A stretch of DNA of 64,000 nt, taken from assembly GCA_947629505.1 (NCBI GenBank), contig CANRDW010000002.1, forward strand, positions 150 through 64,149, in the 5' to 3' direction. Positions 1 through 64,000 of this stretch are shown here, piece after piece (the first letter of the stretch is position 1; each line of letters opens with the position of its first letter). The notes beneath the pieces are model-generated. The model saw only the letters and a program-made list of their open reading frames with translations. It did not search any database and was not told the origin of the DNA. The translations under genes and the position numbers were made by a program. This DNA comes from an uncultured Clostridia bacterium. Lineage in GTDB: Bacteria > Bacillota > Clostridia > Christensenellales > UBA1242.

Positions 1-666
1 CCTATATATACATTTTATGATGATAGCCAATTTGCACATGTGACGATAAATGGGGTTTCTAAGTGGTTTTCTGTGACGCCAATCCGCTGGCGTGTGAGTG
101 ACTATAACACACCACAGACAACTTATCCGCAATATTATGAACAATATGGCACGACATTGCAACATATTGATGCAGTTTCAGACAAAATACTTTTTGCAAG
201 CATCATGACGCCAGAAAAAATTGACGGCTCTGAAGAGAAAAACAGTTTTCAGTTCTGGCTAACGGACTATGTAAACAACACATTATACAGCAATTTAAAG
301 ATGCAATATACAGAAATGTCACAACAGATGTTTGATGTATTCCAACCAGATGGGACACAAGAGGTTGTGCAGGAAGAAAGAGAGGGATATAATATGCTTG
401 TTGGGAATTTAACAAGCAAGTTAAATCAATCCAAACTCACAGAATTTGCATCGTTTTTGATGTATGGCACAACAGCCTATGCGGGATCATTTGACAACTA
501 TTGGACAAGGGATTTAGGAATATATAATATGGAAACACAAGACTCATATGCCGAGTATGGCTGCGGCGTGGTCATCACAAGTGATGGGCGTCAAACACTT
601 CGCTGGCTCAACCAAATGTGCGGAGTGAGATTGACAGCCACATTCACGGGGATAAGCAGATATTAG
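1..666 (+). CDS. 3' part of a surface/secreted protein gene (5' end outside window), DUF6273-like C-terminal domain
   Basis: Frame 1 is open from nt 1, with no stop before the first Met at 40. Stop TAG at 664-666. Motifs IRWRV, NYWTRDLG and GVRLTATF resemble the DUF6273 pattern. Family call is by eye only. Confidence 0.6.
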   Translation, partial: PIYTFYDDSQFAHVTINGVSKWFSVTPIRWRVSDYNTPQTTYPQYYEQYGTTLQHIDAVSDKILFASIMTPEKIDGSEEKNSFQFWLTDYVNNTLYSNLKMQYTEMSQQMFDVFQPDGTQEVVQEEREGYNMLVGNLTSKLNQSKLTEFASFLMYGTTAYAGSFDNYWTRDLGIYNMETQDSYAEYGCGVVITSDGRQTLRWLNQMCGVRLTATFTGISRY

Positions 667-810: not shown

Positions 811-842
811 ATAGGGTGAGGCTTGCGGGGGGGGCGGAGTGC

Positions 843-6420: not shown

Positions 6421-6433
6421 ATTTATCCCCCCC

Positions 6434-61559: not shown

Positions 61560-61800
61560 ACGCGGACACGATGCGAAGCATCTAACCGCTAAAATTCGTT
61601 TTCCCCGTGTGCCCCTTTTAGCCTTGCAAAATTCCGCCGGACATTTTGCGGGCGGCGGGAGTGCGATTTCAATTTGTGCTTGCCGAACGCAGTTCTACGC
61701 TCGCAAAATTGAAACTCGAGTTTTGGATGTGCCGGCGGGGATTCTAAGAGAGATGTTTCGCTTCGCTCAACATGACGAAAATGTTGGAATCTCAAAAATT
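61560..61800. repeat. REP-like GC-rich palindromic intergenic repeats (same family as 668-1015)
   Basis: GAGATGTTTCGCTTCGCTCAACATGACG (61750-61777) matches 20/28 with 668-694. AAAATTCCGCCGGACATTTTGC and CGGGCGGCGGGAGTGCG...TTCAATTTGTGC resemble 975-996 and 914-945. Confidence 0.5.
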
Positions 61801-61857
61801 TTTGAAAAATTTGTTTATTTATTTTGTAATTTTGCTTTTATGTGATAGAATAATGAT

Positions 61858-62043
61858 ATGAAAAAGTTCTTCGAAAAGCTGAAAAACGTTTTCAAAAACA
61901 AAAAGTTATGCACACTGATTTTATTATCAGTGTTTGTTTTATCTGCCTTTGGAACAGGGCTTGGCATAATTATCCACACCGCAATTTCTGCGGGGGGGGT
62001 GCTTCTGAGCTTACAGACAATAAAACTTGGCAAGATTATATGA
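61858..62043 (+). pseudogene. Signal-peptide/anchor exon of a surface-protein gene, separated from its body by a frameshift at a G8 tract
   Basis: MKKFFEKLKNVFKNKKLCTLILLSVFVLSAFGTGLG... is a typical signal sequence. Its frame stops at 62041-62043, while the downstream ORF frame is already open from 61953. Confidence 0.6.
61992..61999. repeat. Homopolymeric G8 tract at the frame junction
   Basis: CGGGGGGGGT. One extra G (G9) would fuse the 61858 frame to the 62040 frame. Confidence 0.9.
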
Positions 62044-64000
62044 TGCAACCATCAGGCAAAGGGACTTCTAGTTCAGACCCATATTGCATTACACGTCCTG
62101 AAGAATTGGCGTATATTCAAAGGGCGGTCTCTAGAAAACCAACATATTACGTTTTAGAGACAAATATTGATTTGTCTGATAATGAATGGATGCCAATTCA
62201 AATTGATGTAAGAGACACCAGCTTAGGGGCGATTTATTTTAATGGAAATGGTTTTGTAATAAGCGGAATGAATTGCCACCAAAGAACAAGTTTAGGGGTT
62301 GGTTTGTTTGCCGGGCTTCCAGCAGGCTCTCAGATTTCAAATGTGTTTATTTCATCTTCTGAAATTGATGTGAGACAAAGTGGTGAATTTAATTGTGGCT
62401 TTATTGCTGGGACGGTTGGCAATTCTTGTCAGTTTTTAAACTGTGGGGTTGTAGATTCCACTTTGACATTGTTAAGCAATACAAATAATGAGGGAGTTGG
62501 CGGCTTAATTGGAAGCACAGGGACCGAAACATATATGGATCAGTGCTTTACTCATAATGTGACTTTTAGTTTTGTTGTAAATAATAGTTGCAATATTGGA
62601 GGGATTGCGGGACTTTTTGAAGGGCGCATGTACAACTGTTATTCCAGGTTGAGATTTGCTACAACTCCCTTAACGTGTAGTGCGTTTGGAGGTCTTGTTG
62701 GAGCAACAGCAAGTGGTGGAGTGATGATAATCAACAGCTATGCCTTTTTTGATATAGGAGATGCTTATGAAACAAGTAATGGGATAAACTATAGAATAAA
62801 AAACCTTGGCTTTTCAGGTGGATTAATTGGGGATATAACAACAGCAATGACTGCAACCTCTTGTGATGTTATTTTTTGGCAAAGCAGTTTATATACAAAT
62901 ATTTTTGCACCAAGTGGATTTGCAGGTAATAATGGGTCTTTTATGGAATGCAGAATATGTTATGTTAATGGAACAACAGAACAAGATATTATTAGTTCTC
63001 GTGGTTATACTCCACCTTCTAATTGGGATTTAAATAACAAACCCCAGGGGGATTATAATTCTGTTTGGGGTTTTGGTTCAAACGCCTTTGGATTGCCTAG
63101 GCTTTGCAAGAGTTTAATGAATAGAGGAAATGGTACATCTTCAAATGTATCCAATGTTGTATTGCGTAAAAAAAAATATGATGGTTGTTATGATTCAGTT
63201 ATGGGATATATTAGAGGACAGAATGTCGAGGTGTGTTTTGAGCCTTCTCAATCTAATGCAAAATTTAAGTCTTTAACAGTTGAAACGCTAGACTTATTGA
63301 GTGATTATGATCCATATTATAGAAAAGTTTATGACACGTGTCAAACAGATTCATCAGGGTTTTATGTTGAATCTGTGATGATTCCTGGATCATATATATA
63401 TTCTTCATATAAAAATGATATACCTGAACCAAATTATGTCTATACAATTAATATTGAAGTGGAAATTCCAATAACAACATTGAGATGTGTTTGGGAAGAC
63501 AGACGCGCACCATCTTATACATCTACAAGCCTCAGTTTGTCAGTTGGCACAGAATCTAGGACACTCACAGCGGTTAGAGATTCATATTCTTTCTCTTCAA
63601 CAAGTTTTTCAACATCAACAGTTGCATGCACGGCAACTTTTAGCAGTACAAACCAGCAGGTCGCTGTTTACATTGGCACTTCAAATAGCCTTGATGCAGC
63701 AGGGGCATCTGCAACTATAGGCAACAAAGCAACATACACATGGGACAAGACAAGTAATGTGACACTTTATATATTTGTTTTTCAAACTTATACAGTTACT
63801 TTCCGCGCAGGTAATGGAGTGGGGGCAACTTTCTCACAAAGAAAACTTTGTGATGTGACTTTGTATCTACCAGACAGCACATTTACAAGAGAGGGTTACA
63901 CTCAAAACGGGTGGAATACAAACACGGCAGGAACAGGCACGCACTATGATGTTTGGGGCCGTTACACAACAAATGCGGCAACAACTTTTTATGCTGAATG
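62040..64000 (+). CDS. GLUG-motif / List-Bact-repeat surface protein (3' end outside window), not in the ORF track
   Basis: I translated the frame by hand and it is open from 61953 to the window end. MMQPSGKGTSSSDPYCITRPEELAYIQ...TNIDLSDNEW...FNGNGFVISG head. GLUG motifs VGGLIGSTG, IGGIAGLFEG, FGGLVGATA, SGGLIGDIT. The terminal YTVTFRAGNGV...FTREGYTQNGWNT is Flg_new-like. Confidence 0.8.
   Translation, partial: MMQPSGKGTSSSDPYCITRPEELAYIQRAVSRKPTYYVLETNIDLSDNEWMPIQIDVRDTSLGAIYFNGNGFVISGMNCHQRTSLGVGLFAGLPAGSQISNVFISSSEIDVRQSGEFNCGFIAGTVGNSCQFLNCGVVDSTLTLLSNTNNEGVGGLIGSTGTETYMDQCFTHNVTFSFVVNNSCNIGGIAGLFEGRMYNCYSRLRFATTPLTCSAFGGLVGATASGGVMIINSYAFFDIGDAYETSNGINYRIKNLGFSGGLIGDITTAMTATSCDVIFWQSSLYTNIFAPSGFAGNNGSFMECRICYVNGTTEQDIISSRGYTPPSNWDLNNKPQGDYNSVWGFGSNAFGLPRLCKSLMNRGNGTSSNVSNVVLRKKKYDGCYDSVMGYIRGQNVEVCFEPSQSNAKFKSLTVETLDLLSDYDPYYRKVYDTCQTDSSGFYVESVMIPGSYIYSSYKNDIPEPNYVYTINIEVEIPITTLRCVWEDRRAPSYTSTSLSLSVGTESRTLTAVRDSYSFSSTSFSTSTVACTATFSSTNQQVAVYIGTSNSLDAAGASATIGNKATYTWDKTSNVTLYIFVFQTYTVTFRAGNGVGATFSQRKLCDVTLYLPDSTFTREGYTQNGWNTNTAGTGTHYDVWGRYTTNAATTFYAE

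What the first reader, a model, noticed from the sequence alone, without database searches (positions are those of the whole stretch)
61858..64000. G8 tract separates a signal peptide from a second GLUG/List-Bact surface protein: phase-variation switch or homopolymer error
ORF 61858-62043 encodes only a signal/anchor peptide. The downstream frame is open from 61953 to beyond the window end (more than 680 codons, absent from the ORF track because it has no stop in the window). It encodes a GLUG-type adhesin head with GLUG repeats and a terminal Flg_new repeat. Both frames are open across CGGGGGGGGT (61992-61999). Inserting one G (G9) or deleting two (G6) yields one continuous protein, ...HTAISAGGG-ASELTDNKTWQDYMMQPSGKG.... 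Slipped-strand mispairing at poly-G tracts is the classic ON/OFF mechanism for surface proteins, and here the sequenced state would be OFF. Alternatively, internal initiation at the ATGATG at 62040 would give a protein without an export signal.
Basis: seen in the sequence. Interest (0 to 1): 0.6.

Follow-up and report, generated by a model that had tools for sequence, protein, structure and literature searches.

The report
Poly-G on/off switch, surface-protein family
A run of eight G's just after the export signal puts a large surface-protein gene of an uncultured gut Clostridia bacterium out of frame; it is one of about 27 such runs in this 1-Mb genome and very probably a classical slippage on/off switch, a known mechanism seen here in a little-studied lineage.

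Summary
G8 lies at 61992-61999. A 61-codon signal/anchor ORF (61858-62043) and a body ORF of more than 1,000 codons overlap across it, and a tract length divisible by 3 would fuse them.

- Five paralogues in the genome carry the same 5' cassette (promoter, signal peptide, poly-G) with G9 or G10.
- All six genes are out of frame as assembled, yet every body ORF is intact, and the signal peptide shows only synonymous change.
- G/C runs are bimodal genome-wide. Lengths 6-7 are almost absent (5 seen, 73 expected), while 27 runs of 8-10 exist (2.7 expected).
- Fourteen runs sit in -35/-10 promoter spacers. The others sit in surface or glycan genes.
- A close relative has an isochorismatase-family gene intact with 9 where this genome has 10 and is split.
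- Another species of the genus has a lipoprotein family of the same design, with G10 copies in frame and G9/G12 copies out of frame.

The head domain is a GLUG-type beta-helix by fold. The design matches the Bifidobacterium breve pilin G-tract switch and the Campylobacter poly-G phasome. This scan has met it before in other gut Clostridia. It is a new member of a known kind. The exact G8 count remains unverified.

The parts
61824..61851 (+). Promoter-like site: -35 TTGTAA, 16-nt spacer, TG-extended -10 TAGAAT. The -10 ends 6 nt before the ATG and no Shine-Dalgarno lies between, so the mRNA may be leaderless.
   Evidence: promoter scan, 9/12 matches with TG; this stretch (TTTGTTWATTTATTTTGTAA...TGTGATARAATAA) is invariant or nearly so in all six paralogues, while the sequence further upstream is unrelated.
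61858..61991 (+). Coding sequence of the N-terminal signal/anchor peptide: MKKFFEKLKNVFKNKK (basic), LCTLILLSVFVLSAFGTGLGIII (hydrophobic), HTAISA. As assembled the frame runs on to a stop at 62041-62043.
   Evidence: the 5 substitutions against the C38 paralogue are all third-position and synonymous in this frame, and all non-synonymous in the other two frames.
61992..61999 (+). G8 homopolymer, the proposed slippage tract. It encodes the Gly run directly after the signal peptide. In-frame lengths are 0 mod 3.
   Evidence: Paralogues carry G10, G10, G10, G9 and G9 at the same position.
62001..64000 (+). Body of the surface protein (ASELTDNKTWQDYMMQPSG...), open to the window end and on to the contig end. 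It has a GLUG-type beta-helix head followed by Flg_new / Listeria-Bacteroides repeats.
   Evidence: open frame. (Flg_new E=4e-7). (AF2 model, best fold match PDB 3N6Z E=1.1e-8, then IgA1-protease N-domains). (paralogues on C38, C34, C15, C7, C40).

Best explanation
The G8 tract is a slipped-strand (simple-sequence-repeat) contingency switch that gates translation of a large, exported GLUG beta-helix / Listeria-Bacteroides-repeat surface protein.

How it would work:
- Transcription starts at a conserved promoter that ends 6 nt before the ATG.
- Ribosomes translate the signal/anchor peptide and enter the G tract.
- With a length of 0 mod 3 they continue into the body of more than 1,000 codons, and the protein is exported (ON).
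- With G8, as assembled, they stop 14 codons after the tract (OFF).
- Gain or loss of a G by replication slippage switches a lineage between states.

The gene is one of a six-member family in this genome that shares the promoter, signal peptide and poly-G cassette but has divergent bodies, so the cell population can display different combinations of surface proteins. It is also one of about 27 poly-G/C tracts in the genome. The others sit in -35/-10 promoter spacers or in surface and glycan-modification genes.

Shown here: the anatomy, the frames, the paralogue lengths, the genome-wide excess, and length and frame differences at other tracts between relatives. Inferred: actual switching at this locus, export, and surface location.
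For: 1; there are two frames across G8, and the body frame is open for more than 1,000 codons in a 36% GC contig.
2; five further paralogues (C38 G10, C34 G10, C15 G10, C40 G9, C7 G9) have the tract at the same place behind the same cassette. C2 and C38 are 96% identical over 300 nt, and the only indel between them is the tract. Each body ORF is intact, at 461 or more up to 1,250 codons.
3; substitutions in the signal peptide are synonymous in the signal frame only.
4. G/C run lengths are bimodal. Lengths 6-7 give 5 observed against 73 expected; lengths of 8 or more give 27 observed against 2.7 expected, with a modal length of 9, as in Campylobacter (9G 53%, 10G 26%).
5; 14 tracts lie between a perfect TTGACA and a -10 box.
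6; the other coding tracts lie in GT2, GT8, a nucleotidyltransferase-aminotransferase, a peptidase C39-like gene, an isochorismatase-family gene and an unnamed ORF. Three are in frame and three are split.
7; the isochorismatase-family gene is split with 10 here and is one intact 157-aa ORF with 9 in the nearest relative (flanks 93.5% identical, the tract being the only gap). Another orthologous tract is 10 against 8.
8; in another species of the genus a lipoprotein family has the same layout (promoter, lipoprotein signal, poly-G, body) with lengths 9, 9, 10, 10 and 12. The G10 copies are in frame.
9; 92 of 101 sampled genomes of the genus have G8+ runs.
10; at most 9 of about 494 A/T runs of 7 or more inside open frames coincide with a frame split, so the assembly is not generally prone to homopolymer errors.
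11; the same signal-ORF | G-tract | body-ORF layout was shown by experiment to be a replication-slippage ON/OFF switch in Bifidobacterium breve (PMC9187656).
Against: - No read-level or strain-level length variation could be shown at this locus. No orthologue was found in the nearest relative, in 100 genomes of the genus or 40 relatives, in 5.8 billion proteins or in JGI metagenome contigs.
- All six family members are out of frame as assembled. The chance of this is about 9% if phases were random. Strong selection for OFF could explain it, but so could a systematic miscount or a recoding step.
- Illumina data are known to be unreliable at G tracts, and deposited lengths can differ from the population majority (PMC9187656).
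- MutS and MutL are intact, so slippage is not helped by loss of mismatch repair as it is in Campylobacter.
- One of the orthologous length differences (C8:36314, 9 against 8) arose by substitution, not by an indel.
Confidence: 0.8

Rival explanations
1. Miscounted homopolymer: the real majority length is G9, the gene is in frame in most cells, and the split is an assembly or sequencing artefact.
For: Reads could not be checked. G tracts are hard for Illumina chemistry, and reference lengths can differ from the population majority (PMC9187656). All six family members are exactly one base away from an in-frame length.
Against: With lengths of 8-10, every length is within one base of an in-frame one, so that point carries no information. 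The errors would have to run in both directions (G8 one too few; G10 one too many in three paralogues). A/T homopolymers in the same assembly rarely split genes. Three other coding G9 tracts are assembled in frame. Even if the count is wrong, a G9 tract kept at the same position in six paralogues within a genome that otherwise avoids G6-G7 is still a slippage-prone tract, not an ordinary gene.
Confidence: 0.15
2. Recoding rather than mutation: RNA polymerase slippage on the G run makes a share of in-frame mRNA from an out-of-frame gene, so the family is expressed at a low level whatever the DNA length. This is how the split dnaX of this genome is thought to be expressed at an A9 run. Ribosomal frameshifting would be a less likely route.
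For: All six family members are out of frame, which is what a slippage-dependent default would look like.
Against: Three members would need a +1 change and three a -1 change, so no single programmed ribosomal shift fits. In the sister design of another species the G10 copies are simply in frame. The B. breve work found that DNA-level slippage accounts for expression. I know of no evidence that slippage on G runs of 8-10 is efficient (own knowledge, not tested here).
Confidence: 0.1
3. Decaying pseudogene: the frameshift is a fixed lesion in a dying gene family.
For: All six members are out of frame as assembled, and no orthologue was found elsewhere.
Against: In each of the six genes the only lesion is at the tract, and body frames of 461 or more up to 1,250 codons carry no stop in an AT-rich genome. 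Substitutions in the signal peptide are purely synonymous between C2 and C38. The promoter cassette is conserved.
Confidence: 0.03
4. Internal initiation at the ATG ATG at 62040 gives a cytoplasmic protein without an export signal, and the upstream ORF is a separate small membrane peptide.
For: A gene caller started the paralogue's product at the equivalent MMQPSG (P0001).
Against: There is no Shine-Dalgarno before 62040. A beta-helix plus Listeria-Bacteroides-repeat architecture is typical of extracellular proteins. Other paralogues (C34, C15, C7, C40) have no equivalent ATG pair at that position. The signal frame and the body frame are joined by a tract whose position is conserved.
Confidence: 0.03

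Closest known systems
Bifidobacterium breve UCC2003 sortase-dependent pilin genes bbr_0113 and bbr_1889 (Penno et al. 2022, Sci Rep 12:9576, PMC9187656)
   Same: A Gram-positive gut commensal. The Sec signal peptide and the protein body are encoded by two ORFs separated by an intragenic G tract. The reference sequence is in the OFF state. There is no Shine-Dalgarno or signal at the annotated start of the second ORF. The population is heterogeneous in tract length, and in-frame lengths are enriched in vivo.
   Different: In B. breve the tracts are G10-G12, sit in the first gene of pilus operons, and the products are LPXTG pilins. Here the tracts are G8-G10 in a six-gene family of GLUG beta-helix / Flg_new proteins without LPXTG in the complete paralogues, in a Clostridia lineage with a 1-Mb genome. 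Switching has not been measured here.
Poly-G/C phasome of Campylobacter jejuni and relatives (PhasomeIt, Microb Genom 2018, PMC6321876)
   Same: Dozens of poly-G/C tracts per small, AT-rich genome, with lengths peaking at 9 then 10, G on the coding strand, and targets enriched for surface structures and glycosyltransferases.
   Different: Campylobacter tracts are mostly intragenic (77%) and the organism lacks MutS/MutL-type mismatch repair (own knowledge). Here about half the tracts are in promoter spacers, and MutS and MutL are intact.
Neisseria meningitidis porA / opc / fetA promoter-spacer tracts and phasome (PMC5953494)
   Same: Homopolymeric G/C tracts between -35 and -10 set the spacer length. 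In this genome, 14 promoters have C8-10 or G9-10 directly after a perfect TTGACA.
   Different: That is the transcriptional class. The tract examined here belongs to the translational class.

Membership tests
Simple-sequence-repeat contingency locus (translational phase variation) | Homopolymer at or above the length known to slip (7-8 or more G) inside the 5' coding region | tested here: met
   G8 at 61992-61999, 45 codons after the ATG
Simple-sequence-repeat contingency locus (translational phase variation) | A one-unit change in tract length toggles between a full-length ORF and early termination, and the gene is otherwise intact | tested here: met
   The signal frame stops 14 codons after the tract. 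The body frame is open for more than 1,000 codons. A length of 0 mod 3 fuses them.
Simple-sequence-repeat contingency locus (translational phase variation) | Such tracts occur more often than chance and at functionally meaningful sites | tested here: met
   27 observed against 2.7 expected, with runs of 6-7 depleted. The tracts lie in promoter spacers or in the 5' parts of surface and glycan genes.
Simple-sequence-repeat contingency locus (translational phase variation) | Tract length is polymorphic between copies, strains or relatives while the flanks are conserved | tested here: inconclusive
   Paralogues differ: 8, 9, 9, 10, 10, 10, with the only indel between C2 and C38 in the tract. Other tracts differ between this genome and its nearest relative: 10 against 9 with a frame change, and 10 against 8. 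No orthologue of this particular gene was found in any other assembly.
Simple-sequence-repeat contingency locus (translational phase variation) | High-frequency, reversible length heterogeneity within one population, with a matching ON/OFF phenotype | not testable with these tools
GLUG / Peptidase_M26_N-type beta-helix surface proteins | Match to the Pfam GLUG motif model (PF07581) | tested here: not met
   No hit for this protein at E up to 5. Paralogue P0002 gives only E=0.34.
GLUG / Peptidase_M26_N-type beta-helix surface proteins | Right-handed beta-helix fold like PDB 3N6Z and the N-terminal domain of IgA1 proteases | tested here: met
   AF2 model with pLDDT 75-90 over residues 25-250. 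Foldseek best hit is 3N6Z (E=1.1e-8, TM 0.63 on target), followed by 7UVK, 6XJA and 6XJB. GG[LI][IAV]G motifs recur in the sequence.
Listeria-Bacteroides repeat (Flg_new, PF09479) proteins | Match above the curated cut-off | tested here: met
   30.5 bits against a cut-off of 27, E=4e-7, residues 597-665 of the in-window body. The model was not reported when the longer 981-aa piece was scanned.
B. breve-type G-tract-gated sortase pilins | LPXTG sorting signal and a pilus/sortase operon | tested here: not met
   The complete paralogues P0001 and P0002 end in a conserved Cys-rich domain with no C-terminal LPXTG and no hydrophobic tail. The C-terminus of this gene lies beyond the contig.

The most novel reading that the evidence does not exclude
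In this reduced-genome genus of gut Clostridia, poly-G/C slippage may be a principal regulatory layer and not merely an occasional device. The genome carries about 27 tracts per Mb, a higher density than C. jejuni. Half of them abut a perfect -35 box and half follow export signals on what look like leaderless mRNAs, and all this sits in a background with intact mismatch repair. The six-gene family would then be held OFF by default and displayed one or a few at a time as an antigenic or adhesive variation system, possibly with RNA-polymerase slippage adding leaky expression.
Probability: 0.2. Interest if true: 0.7.

Novelty: new member of a known kind. Interest (0 to 1): 0.45.

Why it matters
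Phase variation in gut commensals is known mainly from invertible promoters and methylation switches. Homopolymer contingency loci are textbook for Campylobacter, Helicobacter, Neisseria and Haemophilus, and for Gram-positive commensals they have been shown by experiment essentially only in Bifidobacterium pili.

Here an uncultured Clostridia lineage with a tiny genome turns out to have a complete poly-G phasome covering a surface-protein family, glycosyltransferases and many promoters. This has three consequences.
- Automated annotation of these MAGs systematically mis-calls such genes as fragments without a signal peptide (see P0001 and P0002).
- Consensus assemblies hide population heterogeneity in surface display.
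- These organisms probably vary their surface towards host, phage or partner cells.

The mechanism itself is not new, and this scan has already met the same design in other gut Clostridia genomes and a promoter tract in this genome.

Tried and rejected
- **Read-level check.** This is the main gap.
- **Orthologues in other samples.** All of the following came back empty or gave only this genome's own paralogues, so no strain comparison at this locus was possible:
  - a pattern scan of JGI metagenome contigs for the cassette (0 hits);
  - a promoter pattern in GTDB genome contigs (0 hits);
  - a DNA search for the 5' cassette in 100 genomes of the genus, where only the AT-rich promoter part matched weakly;
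  - a profile of the signal peptide in 100 genomes of the genus and 40 relatives;
  - a DNA search in the nearest relative, G117;
  - the fused protein against 5.8 billion proteins (only paralogues P0001 and P0002 plus two weak hits).
- **Domain and structure searches.** The Pfam GLUG model was not significant. A profile search of PDB sequences gave no hit.
- **Upstream RNA element.** No Rfam family was found, so a riboswitch upstream was rejected.
- **Loss of mismatch repair as the cause.** Rejected, because MutS and MutL are intact in this genome and in 60 of 61 genomes of the genus.
- **A single programmed ribosomal frameshift.** Rejected, because family members need shifts in opposite directions.
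- **A generally error-prone assembly.** Rejected on the A/T-run control.
- **Read-through searches.** For the Pfam and homology searches I read through the tract in this gene and in three other split genes (isochorismatase family, GT8, peptidase C39-like). None is a toxin or effector.
Full report
**1. The observation**

The sequence at 61980-62009 reads cgcaatttct gcGGGGGGGGtgcttctgag, so the G8 run occupies 61992-61999. ORF 61858-62043 encodes MKKFFEKLKNVFKNKKLCTLILLSVFVLSAFGTGLGIIIHTAISAGGVLLSLQTIKLGKII*. A second frame is open from 61908 to the window end.

The window is G000:C2:150-64149. On the contig this second frame stays open to the last base: 1,012 codons from the ATG at 61908, and the gene runs off the contig. 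The signal frame reads GCG GGG GGG GTG and the body frame reads GGG GGG GGT GCT TCT GAG.

**2. The protein**

The N-terminal piece has a basic stretch of 16 residues, a hydrophobic stretch of about 23 residues and an A-I-S-A motif. It is either a Sec signal peptide or an N-terminal membrane anchor, and I could not tell which.

- Pfam finds a Listeria-Bacteroides repeat (Flg_new, E=4e-7, above the cut-off) at the end of the in-window body.
- The GLUG model is not significant, and the PDB sequence search is empty.
- An AlphaFold2 model built from the alignment with two paralogues has pLDDT 75-90 over residues 25-250 and is all-beta.
- Its best structural match is PDB 3N6Z, the GLUG beta-helix of Bacteroides ovatus BACOVA_03286 (E=1.1e-8), followed by the N-terminal beta-helix of streptococcal and Gemella IgA1 proteases.

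The complete paralogues end in a conserved Cys-rich domain and have no LPXTG.

**3. A gene family with the same switch**

BLAST within the genome finds five paralogues, on C38, C34, C15, C7 and C40. All six genes share a 5' cassette:

- a promoter-like site: -35 TTGTAA, 16 nt, TG-extended -10 TAGAAT or TAAAAT;
- only 6 nt between the -10 and the ATG, with no Shine-Dalgarno;
- the signal peptide;
- a poly-G run at the same codon position.

Upstream of the cassette and downstream of the tract the sequences are unrelated or much more divergent. C2 and C38 are 96% identical over 300 nt of cassette, yet their bodies share only 51% of amino acids.

The tract lengths are 8 (this gene), 10, 10, 10, 9 and 9. 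Four members need a length of 0 mod 3 and two (C40, C7) need 1 mod 3. All six are therefore out of frame as assembled. In each the tract is the only lesion: the bodies are open for 918, 1,085 and 1,250 codons, or to the contig end.

Between C2 and C38 the signal-peptide region has five substitutions. All are third-position and synonymous in the signal frame, and all would be non-synonymous in either other frame. The small ORF is thus a real coding region under purifying selection, and it makes sense only as the N-terminus of the body. This argues against decay.

Three members would need a +1 correction and three a -1 correction. This argues against a single programmed ribosomal frameshift.

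**4. The genome-wide picture**

The genome has 991 kb in 43 contigs at 38% GC. The length distribution of G/C runs is bimodal:

| Run length | 5 | 6 | 7 | 8 | 9 | 10 |
|---|---|---|---|---|---|---|
| Number of G/C runs | 232 | 4 | 1 | 6 | 15 | 6 |

From base composition one expects 73 runs of 6-7 (5 seen) and 2.7 runs of 8 or more (27 seen; Poisson P about 4e-18). A/T runs decay smoothly.

The 28 runs of 7 or more fall into clear classes:

- Fourteen lie between a perfect TTGACA and a -10 box, giving spacers of about 15-20 nt. An earlier follow-up of this scan had already flagged one of these (e1-2338691).
- Six are the family described above.
- Six lie in other genes:
  - in frame: a GT2 glycosyltransferase, a nucleotidyltransferase-aminotransferase fusion and an unnamed ORF;
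  - split at the tract: a GT8 glycosyltransferase, an isochorismatase-family gene and a peptidase C39-like gene.
- Two are odd cases, described under 'noticed in passing'.

All twelve coding tracts have G on the coding strand. The modal length of 9, then 10, and the choice of targets (surface proteins, glycosyltransferases) match the Campylobacter phasome (PMC6321876).

As a control on assembly quality, about 494 A/T runs of 7 or more lie inside open frames. The assembly is not generally error-prone at homopolymers.

**5. Relatives**

The Mfd protein encoded in the window is 95-96% identical to that of a rabbit-gut MAG, 'Lapin-027__bin73'. It is 70-75% identical to MAGs that submitters labelled Clostridiales, Catabacter, Christensenella or Candidatus Caccovivens. 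Caccovivens is GTDB genus UBA11517, family UBA1242, order Christensenellales (PMC8035907).

In 101 sampled genomes of the genus, 92 have G8+ runs, often dozens.

The close relative (handle G117) has 27 tracts of 7-11. At the orthologous tracts that could be aligned:

- two have equal lengths;
- one is 9 against 8 through a substitution;
- one is 10 against 8;
- one, in the isochorismatase-family gene, is 10 here (gene split) against 9 there (one intact 157-aa ORF). The flanks are 93.5% identical and the tract is the only gap.

The last case is a direct example of a one-base tract change flipping a gene between close relatives.

In a third species (G067), five lipoprotein genes share a promoter cassette, again with the -10 ending 6 nt before the ATG. 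They share the lipoprotein signal MKKLLNSFILIICGIFLTLGCGILLSAC and then carry a poly-G run of 9, 9, 10, 10 or 12. The two G10 copies are in frame and the others are not. The layout 'export signal | poly-G | variable body' thus recurs in the genus with unrelated signal peptides, and in-frame states do get assembled.

**6. What could not be shown**

The family was not found in the nearest relative, in 100 genomes of the genus or 40 relatives, among 5.8 billion proteins or in JGI metagenome contigs. I therefore have no length polymorphism for this locus itself beyond the paralogue comparison, and the exact count of eight is unverified. The B. breve study warns that Illumina reads misbehave at G tracts and that deposited lengths can differ from the population majority (PMC9187656).

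That all six members are out of frame has a probability of about 9% under random phase. It may reflect selection for OFF in the sampled population, miscounts, or leaky expression through RNA-polymerase slippage.

Mismatch repair is not lost. MutS and MutL are intact here and in 60 of 61 genomes of the genus. No Rfam element lies upstream.

**7. Comparison with known systems**

The closest experimentally studied case is the pair of pilin genes of Bifidobacterium breve UCC2003. There the Sec signal and the LPXTG body lie in two ORFs separated by a G tract, the reference genome is OFF, and in-frame lengths are enriched in the mouse gut. The genome-wide pattern is closest to the poly-G phasomes of Campylobacter and, for the promoter class, to Neisseria porA/opc/fetA.

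The differences here are:

- the lineage: uncultured Clostridia with 1-Mb genomes;
- the protein family: GLUG beta-helix / Flg_new, with no LPXTG;
- the even split between promoter and coding tracts;
- the leaderless-looking cassette;
- retained mismatch repair.

The mechanism is not new, and this scan has already reported the same design in several other gut Clostridia genomes.

**8. Verdict**

It is a new member of a known kind, of moderate interest.

Noticed in passing
window 827-834 (G000:C2:976-983): A second G8 run in this window lies in the intergenic stretch between the C-terminal fragment of a family member (ends at 666) and the Spo0A-like gene. It follows a REP-like inverted repeat (gtcattctgaacg...cgttgctcaggatgaa) and precedes a terminator-like hairpin. 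It fits neither the promoter-spacer class nor the coding class.
   Followed up: no
window 6427-6433 (minus strand G7): The only 7-long G/C run in the genome reads AAGGGGGGGATAAATATG on the minus strand. It forms a Shine-Dalgarno-like site 8 nt before an ATG (MEEYNVYCDESCH...), inside the integrated element that other notes describe.
   Followed up: no
window 1-666 and the end of contig C2 (beyond the window): The last 44 nt of contig C2 repeat its first 44 nt with one mismatch. Window 1-666 encodes the conserved Cys-rich C-terminal domain of another family member (…YWYFEDGVFPQREV…). The shared C-terminal domain of the family is what breaks the assembly, so more members may be unassembled. Pfam finds nothing in this domain.
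   Followed up: partly
window 61824-61860; also L202, L205-L208 (G067): In both surface-protein families the -10 box ends 6 nt before the ATG and there is no Shine-Dalgarno, which suggests leaderless mRNAs. That would be unusual for Clostridia, where strong GGAGG sites are the rule; the promoter-tract genes have them.
   Followed up: partly
G000 contigs C1, C6, C8, C10, C16, C17, C21, C23, C24, C30: Fourteen promoters read TTGACA, then 2-4 nt, then C8-10 (two have G9-10), then a -10 box, giving spacers of 15-20 nt. Downstream genes include two paralogous ABC ATPases, putative lipoproteins, WG-repeat and DUF898 proteins, and several proteins with no Pfam match.
   Followed up: partly
G000:C11:10168, C11:14816, C21:15018, C24:12852, C3:896, C14:5168: Poly-G tracts lie inside a GT2 and a GT8 glycosyltransferase, a nucleotidyltransferase-aminotransferase fusion (LicC-like N-terminus), a peptidase C39-like gene, an isochorismatase-family gene and an unnamed ORF. 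Three are in frame and three are split. The glycan genes are the classical targets of contingency loci.
   Followed up: partly
whole genome G000: G/C runs of 6-7 are almost absent (5 seen, 73 expected from composition), as if accidental, half-mutable tracts were selected against while tracts of 8-10 are kept.
   Followed up: partly
window 61560-61780: A GC-rich stretch upstream of the gene contains short repeat elements that recur elsewhere in the genome, for example just after the stops of the C38 and C34 paralogues and on C25, C3, C16, C9 and C5. There is no Rfam match.
   Followed up: no
proteins P0001 and P0002 (paralogues on C38 and C34): Public gene calls for the paralogues start at an internal Met (MMQPSG...) or in the shifted frame (MRQCYFYVCLEQ...). 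The OFF state therefore yields products that lack a signal peptide or are wrongly started in protein databases.
   Followed up: yes
G000:C9:17175-21583: MutS (880-aa frame) and MutL (657-aa frame) are intact and adjacent, and are present in 60 of 61 sampled genomes of the genus. The poly-G system therefore works in a background with intact mismatch repair.
   Followed up: yes
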